NCBI GenBank assembly: GCA_045599105.1
Contig: JAZRVL010000014.1
Coordinates: forward strand, 10,807-74,806
Reading direction: 5' to 3'
Source: Kiritimatiellia bacterium
Lineage (GTDB): Bacteria > Verrucomicrobiota > Kiritimatiellia > RFP12 > UBA1067
DNA length: 64,000 nt
A program made the position numbers and the translations under genes. Below the pieces are notes generated by a model. It did not search any database. It was given only the letters and a program-made list of their open reading frames with translations, and had not been told where the DNA came from. This document shows positions 21,138-49,730 of this stretch, one piece after another. Position 1 is the first letter of the stretch. The number at the start of each line of letters is the position of its first letter.

Positions 21138-21290
21138 GTTATATAACGGTTGTGTGCGCGTTATATAACAGATGGTTGAGTATTATATAACGGTTGGTTT
21201 TGCGTTATATTACGGTTTGTCGGACGGTATATGACGCATTGACAAATGCTATATAATGCAATAGAATCTTTCATATAACAGTTTAGCCGA
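21138..21290. repeat. Tandem array of 7 degenerate ~22-bp direct repeats, each starting with a 10-bp palindrome (consensus GTTATATAAC)
   Basis: Copies start at 21138, 21160, 21183, 21204, 21226, 21248 and 21269; spacing 21-23 bp; unit consensus GTTATATAACGGTTGGTTnnGC, decaying toward the 3' end. Confidence 0.75.
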
Positions 21291-33412: not shown

Positions 33413-34423
33413 ATGAAGACGTATAATGTAGGTTTAGTGGGCGTAGGCGCTGTCGGCACCGAAATGATTCGGGTGCTAAAAGAGCGCGCCTTTCCGTGCG
33501 GCAAGGTTCAAGTATTCGCTTCGCATGAACGCGATGAGGAGATTTTGGGCGAAAAGTATCATGTCCTTAAGGCAGATGAAAATAGCTTTAAGGGCTTGGA
33601 TATAGTTTTATTTGCGGGCAAGACTGATGTTGCGCTCGCACTTAAGGACGCAGTCGTCAAGGCGGGAGCCAAGATGATTGATAATTCGCGTGCGTTTCGC
33701 CAAGACCCCAAGGTGCCGCTCGTCGTCCCGCAAGTGAATGCTGAGGACCTTGACTGGAATGAAGGCGTCATTGCCAACCCTAATTGCACAACGGCAATTA
33801 TGCTGGAGGCGGTGGCGCCTTTACATAAGGCGAAGGGGCTTAAGCGGCTTATTGCCTCGACCTATCAAGCAGCTTCAGGCGCAGGTGCGCCAGGGCTCAT
33901 GGAGCTTGAGGAGCAAATCCACGATTATGCGTCCAATAAACCTTTGACGGTCAAAGCGTTTCAGCATCAGCTGATGTATAACCTCATTCCGCACATCGAT
34001 AAGTTCGATGAGACGAATTGGTATACTCTGGAGGAGCTTAAGATGCGCAATGAAGCGCGCAAGATGCTTCACTTGCCAGAGTTGATGCTTTCTTGTACTT
34101 GCGTGCGAGTGCCGATTGCCCGTGCCCATTCTGAATCGCTCAATATGGAGTTTGAGCGCGACATTACGCCCGAAGAGGCGCGTGAAATATTGAAAGGCGC
34201 GGTTGGAGTCAAAGTGGTTGACGATCCACTCAATGGTGGATATCCAATGCCACTTGATGCGACGGCCAAGTATGATGTTCTGGCAGGCCGTATTCGTCAG
34301 GATATTTCGCGCAATGACAAGAAGGGACTTGAGATGTTTATCTCGGGAGACCAGCTTTTGCGAGGGGCTGCGCTTAATGCAGTCGAAATTGCCGAAGAGC
34401 TTATTAAGCGGAAACTCGTCTAA
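33413..34423 (+). CDS. asd: Aspartate-semialdehyde dehydrogenase
   Basis: NAD motif VGLVGVGAVG; active-site NPNCTT; 336 aa; TGATATAAT 10 nt upstream of the ATG. Confidence 0.9.
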   Translation: MKTYNVGLVGVGAVGTEMIRVLKERAFPCGKVQVFASHERDEEILGEKYHVLKADENSFKGLDIVLFAGKTDVALALKDAVVKAGAKMIDNSRAFRQDPKVPLVVPQVNAEDLDWNEGVIANPNCTTAIMLEAVAPLHKAKGLKRLIASTYQAASGAGAPGLMELEEQIHDYASNKPLTVKAFQHQLMYNLIPHIDKFDETNWYTLEELKMRNEARKMLHLPELMLSCTCVRVPIARAHSESLNMEFERDITPEEAREILKGAVGVKVVDDPLNGGYPMPLDATAKYDVLAGRIRQDISRNDKKGLEMFISGDQLLRGAALNAVEIAEELIKRKLV

Positions 34424-36927
34424 TGTATTTACGCGAGCTCAATATTTCCGGCTTCAAGAGCTTTGCAGATAAAACGCGTCTCACGTTTGATCCTGGGCTT
34501 ATTGCAATCGTAGGACCTAATGGTTGCGGCAAATCCAATGTTTCGGATGCGATTCGTTGGGTATTGGGTGAGCAGCGTCCAACGGCGCTTCGTTGCTCGA
34601 AGCTTGCGGATGTCGTTTTTAACGGGACAGATACGCGGAAACCTTTGGGGCTTGCAGAAGTTTCAATCACCTTTGATGATTGTGAGAAAGAGCTGGGGAC
34701 GGATTATCACGAAGTTACGATAACGCGTCGTGTTTATCGGGATGGTTCGGGCGAGTATTTCATCAACAAGCAAGCATGCCGACTCAAAGATGTTCAGCGC
34801 CTGTTTATGAATACGGGAATTGGTACTTCCTCCTATTCAGTTATGGCGCAGGGACAAATTGATGCGATTCTTTCGTCCAAGCCAGAGGATCGTCGAGGCA
34901 TTTTCGAGGAAGCGGCGGGCATCATGAAGTTCAAGGCCGACCGCAAGGAGGCATTACGCAAGATCGAGCAGACCGAGCAAAACCTTTTGCGCGAAGCGGA
35001 TGTCTTACGGGAAATGAAGCGTCAAATTGGCTCTTTGCAGCGTCAAGTCGGCAAGGCCAAGAAGTACAAGGAGCTTCGCGATCAATTGCGAGGGCTTGAT
35101 ATTTATGTCTCTAAGCAAAAGATTCACAATTTTGACAAAGAGCTGGAGCAAAATGCGATAAATCACCGAGAGGTCGAAAAGGCGATTCAAGAAGCGCAAG
35201 AAGTTGTCTTAGCTGCGGAGCAAGAAGCGCAGGAGAAGCATGCGGCAATTCACGAGCTCGAGGAACGCTTGCAGACGTTGGCTTCGGAGCAGGCGGCAGC
35301 CGAAGGCGCTTACGCGCGTGCCCGCGAGGTTATTGGCGTTAATGCGACGCGAGTTGAAGAGTACCGTTCGTTTGTCCAGCGCGATTCGACGGAGATGGCG
35401 GCTTCACGGCGCACGCTTGAGGAAGTGCGTATGCAAGCGGAGTCGCTCGCGCAAAAGACGAAGCTTTTAACCGACTCGCTTGTAGCTGCCAAAGAGGCGC
35501 TAAGCAGAAGCGAGAGCGTATTTGCCGAATCTCAAGCGAAGATTGACGCTAAACGCGAAGAAGTTGCGGTAAAGCGCAATGAAGTCGCCAATACCACGCT
35601 TACAGGACGACTCGTCAAAGATAGTGAAGTTGAGCGCGATGGCAAGATTGAGATTTGGAAAGCACTCACGCAAGTTACTACTGCGGATCGGCGCGAGATT
35701 TTGATGGCGGAGATTAGCTCGGTTGAAGGAGAATTGCACGAGCTTGAAGCATCTTCAGTTACCCTTTCGCAAGAGCTCACCGAGCGGAGAATTGCCACGA
35801 GCCAAATGGAGCAAGAGCTTTCCTTCGTCGGTCAGCAAAATGCCATTGCGAGTGAGCGACGCGAGGAGTTGGAGCGTGCGATTGAGGGACGCGAGGCGAT
35901 GATTAAGGACTACGAGGAGTCGATTGCCAAGTTGACCGAGGAGTCGGGCGAGCTAATGACGCAACTTGATGAGCTAAGGGCAAAGGCGTCAAGTTACATA
36001 GATCTCATCAACGATGAGCGGGGTAAGCGCGCATTGATGTTGGAGCGGATTACTGCAGTTGATCGGCAAGTGGCGCAGAAGCGTGCGGCATTGGATCAAG
36101 CGAGAGATTTTCGTGGTAAGCTCGAAGTGCAGGCGACGGAAGTGACTATGCGTCGGCAGAATATTTACGAGCACTTGCAAGATGAGTATGGGCTTTTTGC
36201 GGATGCGGTGATGCGCGAAGCAGATCCAGAGTGGAAAAACGGCGTAGTTCCACCAATGGAGGAGCTTGAGGGAACGGTCGGGAGATTGCAAGCGGAGATT
36301 GCGGAGTTGGGGCCAGTTAATATGGTTGCGATTGAAGAGTGCCAAGAGCTCGAGGAGCGTTACGCCAAGGAGAAGGCGCAGGAGGAGGATTTGCTCGCTG
36401 CCAAGGCGCAACTTTTGGAGCTGATTAACAATCTCAACTCTACGTCGGGCGATATGTTCAAAACGACGTTTGAGCAGGCGAATAAGAACTTTCAGACGAT
36501 GTTCACTCAGCTCTTTGGTGGAGGTGAGGCGCGACTTATTCTCTTGGAGAATGAAGAGGATCCTTTGGAGTGCGGTATTGATATTATTGCTCGTCCTCCA
36601 GGCAAGCGTCCACAGTCGGTGACATTGCTGTCGGGTGGTGAACGTACGATGACAGCAGTAGCGTTGCTCTTTTCAATTTTCATGATTAAGCCAGCTCCAT
36701 TCTGCATGCTGGATGAGCTTGATGCGGCGTTGGATGATGCGAATATTGGACGTTTTGTAGAGCGGCTTAAGGAGTTTCTCGCCCAATCACAATTCTTGAT
36801 TATTACTCACAATCAGCATACGATTGCGGGTAGTGATCTCGTCTACGGGGTATCACAGCAAGAAAAGGGCGTATCGAGGGTAATCTCGATGAAGCTTTCC
36901 GATATCGGAGTTAAGGCGAAGAAGTGA
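34423..36927 (+). CDS. smc: SMC-family chromosome-segregation ATPase, unusually short (834 aa)
   Basis: N-terminus MYLRELNISGFKSFADKTRLTFDPGLIAIVGPNGCGKSN and C-terminus LSGGERTMTAVALLFSIF...CMLDELDAALD are canonical SMC head motifs; long coiled-coil middle; no obvious G-rich hinge. Confidence 0.7.
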   Translation: MYLRELNISGFKSFADKTRLTFDPGLIAIVGPNGCGKSNVSDAIRWVLGEQRPTALRCSKLADVVFNGTDTRKPLGLAEVSITFDDCEKELGTDYHEVTITRRVYRDGSGEYFINKQACRLKDVQRLFMNTGIGTSSYSVMAQGQIDAILSSKPEDRRGIFEEAAGIMKFKADRKEALRKIEQTEQNLLREADVLREMKRQIGSLQRQVGKAKKYKELRDQLRGLDIYVSKQKIHNFDKELEQNAINHREVEKAIQEAQEVVLAAEQEAQEKHAAIHELEERLQTLASEQAAAEGAYARAREVIGVNATRVEEYRSFVQRDSTEMAASRRTLEEVRMQAESLAQKTKLLTDSLVAAKEALSRSESVFAESQAKIDAKREEVAVKRNEVANTTLTGRLVKDSEVERDGKIEIWKALTQVTTADRREILMAEISSVEGELHELEASSVTLSQELTERRIATSQMEQELSFVGQQNAIASERREELERAIEGREAMIKDYEESIAKLTEESGELMTQLDELRAKASSYIDLINDERGKRALMLERITAVDRQVAQKRAALDQARDFRGKLEVQATEVTMRRQNIYEHLQDEYGLFADAVMREADPEWKNGVVPPMEELEGTVGRLQAEIAELGPVNMVAIEECQELEERYAKEKAQEEDLLAAKAQLLELINNLNSTSGDMFKTTFEQANKNFQTMFTQLFGGGEARLILLENEEDPLECGIDIIARPPGKRPQSVTLLSGGERTMTAVALLFSIFMIKPAPFCMLDELDAALDDANIGRFVERLKEFLAQSQFLIITHNQHTIAGSDLVYGVSQQEKGVSRVISMKLSDIGVKAKK

Positions 36928-36931
36928 TTTT

Positions 36932-37008
36932 GGGATCGTAGCTCAACTGGACAGAGCGCGAGTTTCCTAAACTTGAGGTTGGGAGTTCGATTCTCCCCGG
37001 TCCCACCA
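36932..37008 (+). tRNA. tRNA-Arg (anticodon CCT), CCA encoded
   Basis: Acceptor GGGATCG/CGGTCCC; anticodon stem CGAGT/ACTTG with loop TTCCTAA; T-arm GGGAG-TTCGATT-CTCCC; 3' ACCA. Confidence 0.8.
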
Positions 37009-37249
37009 AATCTTTCAGCCCGAGGCCCCCTACTGACTTTTGCTTACTCCTTCCAGAACGCTGATGTAAGCCAACGGGAAGGGCCGAAACGATAGATAAC
37101 CTGGTGGAGCGAGACGACTAAGGTCACCGAGCTATCGGTTCAACTTGCCCAAGATGGCGACCAAAGGCGCGTTCTTTGATGGCAAAAGGTGACGCTCTGA
37201 ATACTTAAAGGCGGGTATTGGCATAAGTCAACCTGGGTTTTGTGTTCGC

Positions 37250-37410
37250 CATAGTTATGGCGATGGTGTCGGCATAGCTATGGCGATGGTATCGACATAG
37301 CTATGGCAACTAAACGACACAGCTATGTCGAATGATGTGGTATAGCTATGAGTGGACTGTCGGTATAGCTATGGCGATTGAGTCGACATAGCTATGTCGG
37401 CTACATTTGT
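37250..37410. repeat. Tandem array of 7 x 23-bp direct repeats, each starting with the 10-bp palindrome CATAGCTATG (one copy CATAGTTATG, others variants)
   Basis: Copies start at 37250, 37273, 37296, 37318, 37341, 37364 and 37387; unit consensus CATAGCTATGGCGATGGTrTCGr. Confidence 0.8.
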
Positions 37411-37687
37411 CAGGTTAGATAATAGAATGTGTCACATTAACGAACAGGATAATGCGCTTTTATATACGTTGACGCCCCACTTGGGGCGGATGTCAAAGTC
37501 GGTTGGGATTGGGCGATACTCGGCTTAGATGAAGAGTACGGGCAGCTTTGGTATCGTATATATAGAACGCACGCGGGGAGACACCCTCCTTTTCGCCAAC
37601 ATCCTTATAAACCAAAAGTCAGCAGGGGGTAAGCCGAAAGTCCGTAGGGGTGTCGGGCTGTCCCCGAATAGCGCGAATAGCGGTGCA

Positions 37688-39580
37688 TTACTTTTTACTG
37701 CTCGTTTTTACCTGAAACTGCAATAATACCATTCCGAACGGCTGAAACTCCACCGCTAATTCGTCATTATTGGCTACGAACTTTGCATCATGCGAATATA
37801 TCGTCTTGGCGCTTTTTCCCTTTATCGTCCACTTCTCTGGCAATTCAAAGATCTCACTATGGGTCAAGCGAATGCTTTGTGCTTTTTCCGACGGATTACG
37901 CAACGCTACAATCGCACTTTTCTTGCTTAATGACGCATAACCATAAATTGCATTTCCACTATCACTTACTGGATCTCCTCCTACCCAATGCACATCACGC
38001 AACGTTCCCGCATTCGCCTTAAGCCACTTTATCGCTTCCGCCAAGATGTCCCACCACTTCTCGTCCATCAAATCAGGCGAAATGTAATACTCTTGCAAAT
38101 CTGTACCACACGCCATTGACATCCAAACTTCATCCGCAAAATCCTGCGTCGAGGTCTCACTCTTGGAAACATCCTCGCAACTTGGCGGACCATGGCGCGT
38201 TACAATGATACCATGATTCATCAGTGAATTAAGCGGAAATAATGGCGCTTTGGCTACAAAGCGGTCGTATATCTGGTTGTCACGATATGTTACCCACTGC
38301 TGACGCGCTCTGCCTGGACCTTTACGACCAAAATCTTGATCTCCACGCCAAATTGAATCGGCAAACATCACCCAAAAAGGCGACGCCCAAGTCCCAACCG
38401 TGCAATTAACAAATACATCTTGCTTAGCCGCACGCATTTCCCCAATGAGCCGCACTATCGCCTCCATGTCTGGCGCATAACTTGCCGGTGCACCATCACA
38501 ATCATGACCAACACCCATACGATCAAACTTAAACAAGTTCATATCGTACTCGTTAATCATCATAACTACTTGATCACGAAACGCCTTATAATAAGCAGGC
38601 GAACTCATTCTAAGTAAGCCATCATTCTGTCCAATAATGCCTTTGGACTTTGCGTACCTCACTCGCGCCGCATTGCTCCCGCCATATCCTCCGCAAGGAC
38701 TCAACCACGCACCAATTGACGCGCCTTTGTTCTTGTGGGCTTCATCGGCAAGCTTGCGAAAGCCATTGGGAAATCCTGGATGAAAATCCCATAGTGAGTC
38801 CCAATTATCCCATCCATCGTCCCACAAATACGAGTCAATAAAGACTCCACGCTTTTCCGAAAGCTCTTTACGGAAATGTTGCATCACCCCCAACGCCTCG
38901 GCCTCGTTCATACGCTTTTGCCATGGTGCATCATTGCGCCCAATATTGATGTCGTACCACGAATTGTAGTGCGGAAGTACGCGATAAGGATGGGCACGCT
39001 CTCGATTAAGATAGGTTTGGAAATTGCGCCGCAACTGACCAGGAATATATTTCCCTACAACATACGAAACTATCCACGTTTCATTGGGCTGAATCTCAAA
39101 CTCACGAGGCAATGTCGCAGTCACCTTCCCTCCATTCACTTGAACTTGCGCCATTGGATGCTCCACGCCCACGAAATAATCGGGAAACACCGCAACACTA
39201 CCATCCGTATTACCACTTATCTTTCCATTCGCCTTGCCGTCAGGCGACCAATCTTTGAGAAATTCAAAGCGATTAATCATTATGGGAGAGTTCGAAACAT
39301 TTTTCACCTCAAACTCACTGCGCACATATCCACCTACACCATTTATGACTCGCCGAACGATTTCCAGACCGTTTTGACTGATTGGCGCACATTCAAAGCC
39401 ACTACGATTCGATCTCTCCGAATACTTGGCCGCAGAAGGATCGCCCTTTAGCGCTAAAGGTTTTGCGCGAACATAAGGAACGGATATTTCCTTACCATTG
39501 CCAAGCACCACTTTTGCGTCTGGCAATTGTGGAGCAGTAAGCGAAACTACCGCAAGAACAATACAAGTATTAATTATCAT
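37688..39580 (-). CDS. Secreted glycoside-hydrolase-like protein (family unassigned)
   Basis: 630 aa with N-terminal signal peptide; Trp/Asp-rich segments (LWDDGWDNWDSLWDF) typical of carbohydrate-active TIM-barrel enzymes; family not recognised by eye. Confidence 0.35.
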   Translation of the reverse strand: MIINTCIVLAVVSLTAPQLPDAKVVLGNGKEISVPYVRAKPLALKGDPSAAKYSERSNRSGFECAPISQNGLEIVRRVINGVGGYVRSEFEVKNVSNSPIMINRFEFLKDWSPDGKANGKISGNTDGSVAVFPDYFVGVEHPMAQVQVNGGKVTATLPREFEIQPNETWIVSYVVGKYIPGQLRRNFQTYLNRERAHPYRVLPHYNSWYDINIGRNDAPWQKRMNEAEALGVMQHFRKELSEKRGVFIDSYLWDDGWDNWDSLWDFHPGFPNGFRKLADEAHKNKGASIGAWLSPCGGYGGSNAARVRYAKSKGIIGQNDGLLRMSSPAYYKAFRDQVVMMINEYDMNLFKFDRMGVGHDCDGAPASYAPDMEAIVRLIGEMRAAKQDVFVNCTVGTWASPFWVMFADSIWRGDQDFGRKGPGRARQQWVTYRDNQIYDRFVAKAPLFPLNSLMNHGIIVTRHGPPSCEDVSKSETSTQDFADEVWMSMACGTDLQEYYISPDLMDEKWWDILAEAIKWLKANAGTLRDVHWVGGDPVSDSGNAIYGYASLSKKSAIVALRNPSEKAQSIRLTHSEIFELPEKWTIKGKSAKTIYSHDAKFVANNDELAVEFQPFGMVLLQFQVKTSSKK

Positions 39581-48761: not shown

Positions 48762-49730
48762 TTAGTCGAGTTTGACGCCCATCATCGCAATAATGCGATC
48801 AAGGTCATCGTTGTCAAGAAAATCAATCTCAACCATCCCCTTGGTATGCTTGCCATTGGCATGAGTAACGCCACTCGTCACCCTCACCGCACAACCAAGT
48901 TGCTTTTTCATTTTATCAGCAAGATTCTTGATATAACCATCTGGCAAGTCGGGAGTGCCACGACGCACCTCTGCAACTGGCTCATGTAATTTTGCAACCT
49001 TGCGCTCCAATGCACGAACCGTAAGCTGATCATTCACACAATCACGCGCCAACAAAATCCGATCTTTTTCTCCGTCAATCGTAAGCAAAACCTTGGCGTG
49101 ACCAACCGAAAGTAGCGACTGCGACACCAACGCCTTAACTTCATCTGGGAGTTCCAACAAACGCGTAGAGTTGGCAACTGTTGCCCGACCCTTACCCACA
49201 CGCTCAGCTACTTGCTGCTGCGTAAGGTTAAAAGTATCTTGCAATGTCTTATAAGAAATCGCCTCTTCAATTGGATTTAAATCTTCGCGTTGAATATTCT
49301 CCGTCGTCGTCATTGCCGCCGCCGTCAAATCATCCGCCTCTACCAAGGTAACCTTAATCTTCTTCCATCCAGCAAGCTGCGCCGCTCGCAAACGACGCTC
49401 GCCTGAAATAAGCTCATACTTGCCATTAGAATTTTTGCGCACCGTAGGTGGCTGAACCAATCCAGTGTTTTTAAGTGACTCAGCAAGCTCCGTGAGCTCA
49501 GACTCTTTAAAATCTCTACGTGGCTGATAAGGTGAGCGTTCAATATCCATTATTGGAAGCTCTACCGCTTGCGATCCTGTAACTGCAACTACAGGAGACA
49601 CCCCCAAAAGTCCGCCAACTCCACCACCGAAGTTTACACTTCGCCCAAGCCCATGCTTTTTCTTGTCAGCAGCAACGGGAGTTTTTCCTACTCCAGTTGC
49701 CTTTTTAAGAAATGGATTACCTTTTACCAT
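48762..49730 (-). CDS. parB: ParB/Spo0J-family chromosome partitioning protein (no adjacent parA)
   Basis: N-terminal GLGRSVNFGGG; ParB box GERRLRAA; HTH region. Confidence 0.7.
   Translation of the reverse strand: MVKGNPFLKKATGVGKTPVAADKKKHGLGRSVNFGGGVGGLLGVSPVVAVTGSQAVELPIMDIERSPYQPRRDFKESELTELAESLKNTGLVQPPTVRKNSNGKYELISGERRLRAAQLAGWKKIKVTLVEADDLTAAAMTTTENIQREDLNPIEEAISYKTLQDTFNLTQQQVAERVGKGRATVANSTRLLELPDEVKALVSQSLLSVGHAKVLLTIDGEKDRILLARDCVNDQLTVRALERKVAKLHEPVAEVRRGTPDLPDGYIKNLADKMKKQLGCAVRVTSGVTHANGKHTKGMVEIDFLDNDDLDRIIAMMGVKLD

What the first reader, a model, noticed from the sequence alone, without database searches (positions are those of the whole stretch)
37250..37410. Second iteron-like array: seven x 23-bp tandem repeats with the palindrome CATAGCTATG, downstream of tRNA-Arg
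Copies begin at 37250, 37273, 37296, 37318, 37341, 37364 and 37387, an almost exact 23-bp period. The unit consensus is CATAGCTATGGCGATGGTrTCGr. The design (7 copies, ~2-turn phasing, 10-bp perfect palindrome at the unit start) is identical to the array at 21138-21290, but the palindrome sequence differs. It sits in a 680-bp non-coding gap between the convergent 3' ends of tRNA-Arg(CCU) and a secreted glycosidase gene. Ordinary promoter-operator regulation is unlikely at convergent 3' ends. Possible roles include a binding platform for a nucleoid, partition or replication factor, a site-specific recombination or anchoring site, or a satellite-type element. An orphan parB (48762-49730) and a compact SMC (34423-36927) are both nearby, so a centromere-like or condensin-loading role deserves testing.
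Basis: seen in the sequence. Interest (0 to 1): 0.7.

Follow-up and report, generated by a model that had tools for sequence, protein, structure and literature searches.

The report
Operator array of a dead HU-like gene
The seven phased palindromes are real, but they are the leftover control region of a destroyed gene for an HU-family DNA-binding protein; intact copies of this array-plus-gene unit in related gut bacteria show a design not previously described for this protein family.

Summary
Seven dyad-symmetric sites lie at 37247-37399, spaced 23,23,22,23,23,23 bp. The true unit is a 16-bp palindrome, CGnCATAGCTATGnCG.

The array is not tied to the tRNA, ParB, SMC, replication or the terminus. 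A 472-bp block (37081-37552) is 89% identical to a segment in another Kiritimatiellia MAG with unrelated flanks. There the array lies directly upstream of a 238-aa gene I call HU1. HU1 has an HU-type DNA-binding domain plus an Ig-like DUF4469 domain, and its best structural match is 4FMR, the HU-HIG clade.

All 10 HU1 loci I could fetch share one design:
- six or seven 16-bp palindromes at a 23-bp period;
- the last palindrome abuts a near-consensus -35 box;
- an exact 17-bp spacer, then a -10 box;
- exactly 7 nt, then ATG, which suggests a leaderless mRNA.

The palindrome sequence differs between alleles. Two otherwise near-identical alleles differ only in the array cores and in HU1 residues 21-26.

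In the window the unit is dead. The -35 box is lost, ATG has become ATT, codon 31 is a stop, and the gene is truncated after codon 39.

Best reading: a fossil autoregulatory operator array. That HU1 itself binds the array is inferred, not shown.

The parts
37081..37246 (+). Conserved leader of the cassette. It contains two AAAGGCGnGT motifs (37163-37172 and 37207-37216). It also contains a terminator-like hairpin, ATTGGCATAAGTCAAC (37217-37232), followed by a T-run.
   Evidence: 85.5% identical to L102. Also alignable in L120 and L121, and partly in L126. The hairpin was called as terminator-like in L120 at 2091-2106. The repeated motif is family D3.
37247..37399 (+). Array of seven 16-bp palindromic sites (consensus CGnCATAGCTATGnCG) with steps of 23,23,22,23,23,23 bp. 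Site coordinates: 37247-37262, 37270-37285, 37293-37308, 37315-37330, 37338-37353, 37361-37376, 37384-37399.
   Evidence: The array is 94.1% identical to the L102 array and is the best-conserved part of the block. The 22-bp step with spacer ACTAAA is shared with L102, L121 and L126.
37400..37435 (+). Decayed promoter. The -35 equivalent is GCTACA at 37400-37405 (TTGACA in L102 and L120). A 17-bp spacer follows. The -10 box TAGAAT at 37423-37428 is intact, followed by the 7-nt GTGTCAC.
   Evidence: One search gives the register. The promoter scan finds no promoter here. It finds TTGACA-17-TAGAAT, 11 of 12 matches, at the homologous place in L120.
37436..37552 (+). 5' stub (codons 1-39) of an HU-HIG-type gene (HU1). 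The start codon ATG has become ATT (37436-37438). Codon 31 has changed from CAG to TAG (37526-37528). Homology ends at 37552.
   Evidence: tblastn of HU1 residues 1-39 gives 77% identity, E 5.6e-15, and no other HU1 or HU2 match in the window. See also the translations and alignments.
37016..37045 (+). Left copy of a ~28-nt motif, CAGCCCGAnnCCCCTACnGACTTTYG. The motif brackets the gap in inverted orientation. Its relation to the cassette is unknown.
   Evidence: Inverted repeats I5, I9 and I11. Absent from all other fetched loci.
37610..37660 (-). Right copies of the same motif: two tandem copies on the minus strand.
   Evidence: (TRF 37608-37650).

Best explanation
The array is the cis-acting operator region of a small cassette that encodes an HU-family protein, HU1. 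HU1 has an HU-type domain plus an Ig-like DUF4469 domain and belongs to the HU-HIG clade.

Shown, for intact cassettes:
- Seven (once six) 16-bp palindromes at a 23-bp period end exactly at the -35 hexamer of a near-consensus sigma-70 promoter.
- The ATG of HU1 lies exactly 7 nt after the -10 box.
- HU1 is often followed directly by a paralogue, HU2.

Inferred:
- The mRNA is leaderless.
- HU1 dimers bind the palindromes. A loop in the N-terminal beta-hairpin (residues about 19-26) would read the central base pairs.
- Neighbouring dimers 2.2 helical turns apart bind cooperatively into a filament of about 150 bp. Its last dimer is centred near -43.5 and touches RNA polymerase, so the protein controls its own synthesis. 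The sign of that control is unknown.

Shown, for the window: the cassette is a fossil. The -35 box is destroyed, the start codon is ATT, codon 31 is a stop, and everything after codon 39 is gone. The array can no longer regulate a gene in cis. At most it could titrate a cognate protein encoded elsewhere in the genome.
For: (1) Homology without synteny. Window 37081-37552 is 89% identical to L102, with unrelated flanks and no tRNA there.

(2) The downstream gene in L102 and L120 matches DUF4469 above the Pfam cut-off and PF14848 weakly. HU2 matches PF14848 at 52-53 bits. The AF2 model's best PDB match is 4FMR, the Bacteroides HU-Ig protein (E 6e-6), followed by HU/IHF structures.

(3) The design is invariant in 10 of 10 loci, across 50-98% protein identity. 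All have 6-7 units at steps of 23 bp (occasionally 22), a -35 box T[TC]GAC[ATG], a spacer of exactly 17 bp, a -10 box TAnnnT, then exactly 7 nt and ATG.

(4) The information profile is dyad-symmetric. It is high across the 16-mer and low at positions 3 and 14 and in the spacers. When the core changes between alleles, it changes symmetrically, from ATAGCTAT to AYGGCCRT.

(5) A natural swap exists. L102 and L120 differ by 1-4 mismatches per 100 bp over 6 kb, but by 28-31 per 100 bp in the array. All five HU1 amino-acid differences fall in residues 21-26, and HU2 is identical.

(6) Across alleles, a GVG patch goes with a G-type (GGCC) core: 2 loci read directly, 5 inferred from extended ORFs. AVK and related patches mostly go with the AGCT core.

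(7) Decay in the window.
Against: - No binding experiment exists. The binder is inferred only from linkage and co-variation.
- The co-variation is imperfect. KSVTVK alleles appear G-type, and the window's KSVGIG stub sits beside an AGCT array. The alleles are also phylogenetically related, so they are not independent counts.
- Family-wide, the patch is not the most variable part of HU1. Residues 2-9 and 49-54 vary more.
- HU1's own PF14848 match is below the Pfam cut-off, and the AF2 model is mediocre (pLDDT 67).
- Classical HU proteins bind without sequence specificity. The paper that defined HU-HIG judged these proteins unlikely to be sequence-specific transcription factors (PMC5499826).
- The array is the best-conserved part of the dead copy: 94% identity against 85-87% for the rest. 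That could mean it still has a role I have not identified.
Confidence: 0.6

Rival explanations
1. The same cassette relic, but the palindromes are bound by another factor: HU2, a host regulator, or a protein encoded elsewhere. HU1 would then be only the regulated gene.
For: The design shows only that the array belongs to the HU1 promoter. The patch-to-core co-variation has exceptions. Classical HU proteins lack sequence specificity (own knowledge; PMC5499826).
Against: HU2 is 100% identical between L102 and L120 although their array cores differ. HU2 is absent or displaced in several loci. No other gene is shared by all loci. The only protein differences between the two swapped alleles lie in HU1 residues 21-26.
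Confidence: 0.2
2. A chromosome-organisation site at the replication terminus. The array would be a fork barrier, a terminus-domain organiser or a condensin/ParB platform placed where the two replichores meet.
For: GC skew flips from about +0.24 to -0.24, and every ORF of 150 aa or more switches from the plus to the minus strand, exactly at this gap. SMC lies immediately upstream and ParB 11 kb away.
Against: Homologous arrays lie at unrelated places with mixed gene orientation and are always attached to HU1. Symmetric palindromes cannot give polar fork arrest (own knowledge of Tus-Ter and RTP). I found no parS within 3 mismatches and no dif-like site above background. At fine scale the skew simply follows the coding strand.
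Confidence: 0.05
3. The iterons of a plasmid- or ICE-type replication origin, left behind by an element that integrated next to tRNA-Arg.
For: Seven repeats of about 22-23 bp next to an autoregulated gene recall R6K gamma-ori and pir (own knowledge). The array lies 240 bp from a tRNA 3' end. The gap is bracketed by inverted repeats.
Against: The linked gene is HU-family, not a Rep protein. No replication, mobilisation or integrase gene occurs in any locus. The gap has no DnaA box and no A+T-rich stretch. The units are palindromes. HU1 has no homologue in the plasmid, phage or IMG/VR collections.
Confidence: 0.04
4. A neutral minisatellite, or a member of the dispersed 22-23-bp ATAGCTAT repeat families seen in other phyla, with no function.
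For: A pattern scan found more than 119 such arrays in Prevotella, Bacteroidales, Chloroflexota and other groups, beside unrelated genes.
Against: Those arrays share neither flanks nor neighbouring genes with this one. In the HU1 family, unit number, phase and distance to the promoter are fixed while the sequence changes. Spacers diverge while palindromes are kept. These are signs of selection, not slippage.
Confidence: 0.04
5. An RNA-level element: the array is transcribed and folds into seven hairpins.
For: Each unit can form a 6-bp stem with a 4-nt loop. Changes such as CAT/ATG to CAC/GTG keep the pairing.
Against: The array lies upstream of the promoter and just after a terminator-like hairpin. 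The would-be loop (AGCT or GGCC) stays dyad-symmetric, which an RNA loop has no need for. No Rfam family matches.
Confidence: 0.04

Closest known systems
HU-HIG clade of the HU/IHF superfamily (Burroughs, Kaur, Zhang, Aravind 2017, PMC5499826; structure 4FMR, BVU_2165)
   Same: HU1 and HU2 have an HU-type domain followed by an Ig-like domain. The best structural match is 4FMR. The genes occur as adjacent paralogue pairs, diverge fast, and lie among restriction-modification and candidate defence genes. This matches the paper's description.
   Different: The paper reports no cis element and judged these proteins unlikely to be sequence-specific. Here each allele carries a 7-site palindromic array fixed to its promoter. 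The host is Kiritimatiellia, not Bacteroidetes.
Phage lambda OR operators with the PRM promoter and cI (own knowledge)
   Same: Both have dyad-symmetric operators of 16-17 bp with 6-7-bp spacers, so centres are 23-24 bp apart. In both, the promoter-proximal site abuts or overlaps the -35 region, centred near -42 to -43.5. In both, the mRNA for the binding protein appears leaderless and the protein autoregulates.
   Different: Seven sites rather than three. There is no divergent second promoter. The protein is HU-fold, not helix-turn-helix. Binding and cooperativity are untested here.
Plasmid centromere arrays upstream of their own operon (R1 parC/ParR, pSK41 parC, F sopC/SopB, pSM19035 omega sites; own knowledge)
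   Same: Tandem phased binding sites lie directly upstream of the promoter of the gene for the binding protein. The sites are allele-specific and differ between related systems.
   Different: No ParA, ParM or TubZ NTPase gene occurs in any locus. The loci are chromosomal and sit in variable islands. There are no plasmid homologues.
Iteron origins (R6K gamma-ori: seven 22-bp iterons next to pir; own knowledge)
   Same: The same number of repeats and nearly the same period, adjacent to an autoregulated gene.
   Different: The units are palindromic. There is no Rep protein, DnaA box or A+T-rich unwinding element.

Membership tests
HU1 array-promoter cassette (class defined here from 10 loci) | Six or seven 16-bp dyad-symmetric units at a 23-bp period | tested here: met
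   Seven units with steps 23,23,22,23,23,23. The array is 94% identical to the L102 array.
HU1 array-promoter cassette (class defined here from 10 loci) | The last unit abuts a -35 box T[TC]GACN, followed by a 17-bp spacer, a -10 box TAnnnT, 7 nt and ATG | tested here: not met
   The register and the -10 box TAGAAT are kept. The -35 box is GCTACA and the start codon is ATT. The module is homologous but decayed.
HU1 array-promoter cassette (class defined here from 10 loci) | Followed by a complete HU1 ORF of about 238 aa | tested here: not met
   Only codons 1-39 remain, with a stop at codon 31.
HU-HIG clade (for the linked protein HU1, from L102 and L120) | HU/IHF-fold domain | tested here: inconclusive
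   PF14848 scores 21-27 bits for HU1, below the 30-bit cut-off; HU2 scores 52-53 bits. Foldseek gives 4FMR then HU/IHF, with probability 1.0 but TM 0.35 for the whole chain. A PDB sequence search finds nothing.
HU-HIG clade (for the linked protein HU1, from L102 and L120) | C-terminal Ig-like domain | tested here: met
   DUF4469 scores 26 bits against a cut-off of 22.6. The AF2 model has a beta-sandwich at residues 174-237.
Chromosomal parS/ParB centromere | A 16-bp palindrome related to TGTTTCACGTGAAACA | tested here: not met
   No match within 3 mismatches in the window. The array palindrome is unrelated in sequence.
Plasmid-type partition centromere (parC, sopC) | An adjacent partition NTPase gene (ParA, ParM or TubZ) | tested here: not met
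   None was found in the window gap or in any of the 10 homologous loci.
Iteron-type replication origin | An adjacent Rep initiator gene | tested here: not met
   The linked gene is HU-family.
Iteron-type replication origin | DnaA box(es) and an A+T-rich unwinding element beside the repeats | tested here: not met
   No DnaA box with up to 1 mismatch lies between 22584 and 44334. GC content is 0.44-0.54 across the gap.
Terminus elements (dif/XerCD; Ter fork traps) | A 28-bp dif-like site, or asymmetric Ter sites | tested here: not met
   The best dif-consensus scores in the window are at background level and none lies in the gap. The array units are symmetric.
Protein binding to the array | Direct, sequence-specific binding of HU1 to the 16-bp palindrome | not testable with these tools
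   Only linkage and co-variation evidence is available.

The most novel reading that the evidence does not exclude
HU-HIG proteins of this type are sequence-specific. Each allele would carry its own seven-site array and build a phased nucleoprotein filament on it. Specificity, set by the N-terminal hairpin loop against the central base pairs of the palindrome, would diversify between strains as in an arms race or an incompatibility system within defence islands. Orphan arrays such as the one in the window would remain as trans-acting anchor or decoy sites for a cognate protein encoded elsewhere.
Probability: 0.3. Interest if true: 0.75.

Novelty: new variant of a known kind. Interest (0 to 1): 0.55.

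Why it matters
HU-HIG proteins are a large, fast-evolving branch of the HU superfamily with no known function or target. The only analysis I found in the held library argued that they are not sequence-specific (PMC5499826).

The conserved array-promoter-gene unit, together with a natural allele pair that differs only in the array cores and six adjacent residues, gives a concrete and cheap experiment. The test is gel shifts with two proteins and two arrays. It could show an HU-fold protein reading a palindrome, and it would give a first handle on what these proteins do in defence islands.

For this genome the practical message is more modest. The striking repeat is a pseudogene remnant, not a centromere, an origin or a terminus site.

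Tried and rejected
(1) I scanned 185,579 genomes for three ATAGCTAT cores at 22-24-bp spacing. It returned more than 119 arrays, mostly in Prevotella, Bacteroidales, Parabacteroides, Imperialibacter and Chloroflexota. I suspected a universal array linked to HU-HIG genes. The 124 flanking ORFs are diverse housekeeping genes, and only L102 itself plus one other match PF14848. These arrays are unrelated dispersed repeats. The scan's one useful hit was L102.

(2) Terminus idea. The GC-skew and strand switch is real, but there is no dif-like site, and homologous arrays are not at convergence points.

(3) No parS, no DnaA boxes and no Rfam family.

(4) I asked whether the core is the target of the neighbouring methylase, since AGCT and GGCC are classic C5-methylase sites and L102 has a C5 methylase next door. 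L120, which has the GGCC array, has no methylase beside it. The L122 system is Eco29kI-type. I dropped the idea as unsupported.

(5) HU1 searches in JGI metagenomes, IMG/VR, plasmids and phages all found nothing. The one JGI DNA hit is unrelated.

(6) PDB sequence search, PADLOC and NCBIfam gave no match for HU1 or HU2.

(7) I tested whether residues 21-26 are the hypervariable spot of the whole family. They are not the most variable segment.

(8) Exact look-ups of the window's own 630-aa protein failed. I therefore could not fetch the source contig or orthologous tRNA-Arg gaps.

Full report
**The observation**

The sequence at 37247-37399 holds seven copies of a dyad-symmetric site. The copy at 37384-37399 is perfect, and the steps are 23,23,22,23,23,23 bp.

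- All five exact ATAGCTAT octamers in the 64-kb window lie in the array. The expectation is 0.77, and 0 of 100 shuffles reach five.
- All six matches to the 16-mer with up to 3 mismatches also lie in the array (expected 0.19).
- TRF reports only 2.7 copies because the 6-7-bp spacers have diverged.

The array sits in the 679-bp gap between tRNA-Arg(CCT), at 36932-37008, and the end of a minus-strand 630-aa ORF.

**Context**

The window is chromosomal DNA of a Kiritimatiellia MAG. It carries housekeeping genes including SMC, Asd, SerA-like, Def and ParB. The best homologues of the 630-aa protein come from Kiritimatiellia MAGs.

All ORFs of 150 aa or more are on the plus strand left of the gap and on the minus strand right of it. 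GC skew flips from about +0.24 to -0.24 at the same place. This looks like a replication terminus. However, I found no dif-like site, and at fine scale the skew follows the coding strand.

**The key lead**

A scan of species-representative genomes for three ATAGCTAT cores at 22-24-bp spacing returned over a hundred arrays in other phyla. It also returned one Kiritimatiellia contig, L102.

L102 shares a 472-bp block with window 37081-37552 at 89% identity. Nothing on either side is shared, and L102 has no tRNA. The block is therefore a unit that occurs in different genomic places.

In L102 the array is followed directly by an ORF that matches DUF4469 (an Ig-like fold) and, weakly, the HU-type domain PF14848. 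A second gene right behind it matches PF14848 and HU-HIG clearly. I call these genes HU1 and HU2.

An AlphaFold model of HU1 has mean pLDDT 67, with the HU core at 79-96. Its best PDB match is 4FMR, the Bacteroides vulgatus HU-plus-Ig protein that typifies the HU-HIG clade, followed by classical HU and IHF structures.

**The conserved design**

HU1 has 47 homologue clusters, nearly all from gut-type metagenome assemblies and mostly on short contigs. I could fetch DNA for ten loci: L102 and L120-L128. Their proteins are 50-98% identical to the L102 protein.

Every locus has the same layout:

- seven 16-bp dyad-symmetric units (six in L120), at steps of 23 bp with an occasional 22;
- the last unit ends exactly where a -35 hexamer begins (TTGACA, TTGACT, TTGACG or TCGACA);
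- a 17-bp spacer;
- a -10 hexamer (TAGAAT, TACAAT, TATACT, TAGGAT, TATCAT or TACACT);
- exactly 7 nt, then the ATG of HU1.

The promoter scan calls TTGACA-17-TAGAAT, 11 of 12 matches, in L120. The fixed 7-nt distance and the absence of room for a ribosome-binding site suggest a leaderless mRNA. That is an inference.

Over 36 units from the AGCT-type arrays, information is high and symmetric across the 16-mer. It is low at positions 3 and 14 and in the spacers. This is the pattern expected for a dimeric protein on double-stranded DNA.

**Alleles**

The palindrome differs between loci:

| Palindrome core | Loci |
|---|---|
| CATAGCTATG or CACAGCTATG | window, L102, L121, L123, L125, L126, L127 |
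| AYGGCCRT | L120, L122 |
| CTACAGTTGTAG | L124 |
| CAAYRTTG | L128 |

L102 and L120 are near-isogenic, with 1-4 mismatches per 100 bp over 6 kb. Their arrays differ at 28-31 positions per 100 bp. The core change, AGCT to GGCC, is symmetric in every unit.

Their HU1 proteins differ at five residues, all within positions 21-26: KSVEFK against NLVGVG. HU2 is identical.

In the model this patch lies in the loop of an N-terminal beta-hairpin that precedes the HU helices.

Across alleles, a GVG patch goes with a G-type core. Two cases were read directly. Five were inferred from ORFs that extend into the last unit as MAVSLT, MAMSLT or TAVSLT. AVK-type patches go with AGCT.

There are exceptions: the KSVTVK alleles and the window itself. 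The alleles are also related to one another. I therefore treat the co-variation as suggestive evidence that HU1 reads the array, not as proof. The patch is not the most variable segment of the family.

**State of the window copy**

In register with the intact loci:

- the -35 hexamer is GCTACA;
- the -10 hexamer TAGAAT is kept;
- the start codon is ATT;
- codon 31 is TAG;
- similarity to HU1 stops after codon 39.

The promoter scan finds nothing here. No other HU1 or HU2 sequence occurs in the 64 kb. The array is thus the control region of a dead, truncated gene.

Compared with L102, the array is the best-kept part: 94% identity, against 85.5% for the leader and 87% for the gene stub. This may reflect recent decay or some residual constraint.

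**What it most likely does**

In intact cassettes I propose that HU1 dimers occupy the seven sites cooperatively. Site centres are 23 bp apart, which is 2.2 helical turns. The last dimer is centred near -43.5, next to the -35 box, where it can touch RNA polymerase. HU1 would thereby control its own leaderless transcript. The sign of that control cannot be read from sequence.

The geometry resembles lambda OR/PRM, with 17-bp operators 23-24 bp apart and a leaderless cI message (my own knowledge). It also resembles plasmid centromere arrays placed upstream of their own operons. No partition NTPase or Rep gene is present in any locus.

The cassettes lie beside:

- C5 methylases (L102, L127);
- an Eco29kI-type restriction-modification pair inserted between HU1 and HU2 (L122);
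- a Schlafen/AlbA_2 protein (L120);
- PADLOC candidate defence families PDC-S01 and PDC-S05 (L127, L126).

This fits the proposal that HU-HIG proteins act in genetic conflicts (PMC5499826). That paper mentions no upstream repeats and judged the proteins unlikely to be sequence-specific. I found no other relevant paper in the held library.

**Rivals**

- A ParB or SMC platform, a terminus element, an iteron origin, a neutral minisatellite and an RNA hairpin array each fail on specific tests. All of them also fail to explain why the array is always welded to the HU1 promoter.
- The most serious alternative is that a factor other than HU1 binds the sites.

**Limits**

- There are no binding data.
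- Only ten loci were fetched.
- I could not fetch the rest of the source genome or orthologous tRNA-Arg gaps (and the look-up caps).
- The HU assignment of HU1 rests on a weak Pfam match plus a fold match. For HU2 the assignment is solid.

Noticed in passing
window 36900-37700, seen across the whole window: GC skew flips from about +0.24 to -0.24, and every ORF of 150 aa or more switches from the plus to the minus strand, exactly at this gap. This is a candidate replication terminus. No dif-like site scored above background.
   Followed up: partly
window 37016-37045 and 37610-37660: A ~28-nt motif, CAGCCCGAnnCCCCTACnGACTTTYG, follows both convergent genes in inverted orientation, with two tandem copies on the right. 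It brackets the whole gap like terminal inverted repeats. It is absent from every other locus fetched.
   Followed up: partly
window 21138-21290: The first array (palindrome CGTTATATAACG, 22-bp period) runs after its fifth unit straight into a consensus promoter, TTGACA-17-TAGAAT, at 21239-21267. Seven nt later comes ATA rather than ATG, then a stop. The design matches the HU1 cassettes, so this may be a second relic. I did not look for an intact homologue.
   Followed up: partly
L122 about 2040-2170: A second array with a 22-bp period, about six units of the palindrome CCACACTGTGG, lies just upstream of the HU1 array in this locus.
   Followed up: no
L001-L119 (for example L002 3289-3406, L007 1661-1844, L001 6180-6417): Dispersed intergenic arrays with a 22- or 23-bp period and an ATAGCTAT core occur at many loci per genome. 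Hosts include Prevotella RUG137 and SUG860, a Bacteroidales chromosome (OY781105), Parabacteroides sp. 52, Imperialibacter, Chloroflexota and Treponema. In Chloroflexota they recur upstream of GDSL-lipase-like and arginase genes in different genomes. They are not next to HU genes.
   Followed up: partly
L122 3160-4946; L127 1721-3734; L102 6266-7453: Restriction-modification or orphan C5-methylase genes lie inside or beside the HU1-HU2 unit. In L122 an Eco29kI-type endonuclease and methylase split HU1 from HU2. This suggests an insertion hotspot or a defence island.
   Followed up: partly
window 37163-37172 and 37207-37232; L120 2091-2106: The cassette leader holds repeated AAGGCGGG-type motifs and a terminator-like hairpin with a T-run just before the array. 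These are conserved in several loci.
   Followed up: no
window 48762-49730: The ParB gene has no ParA-type neighbour. The adjacent 239-aa ORF has no Pfam match. No parS-like site occurs in the window.
   Followed up: partly
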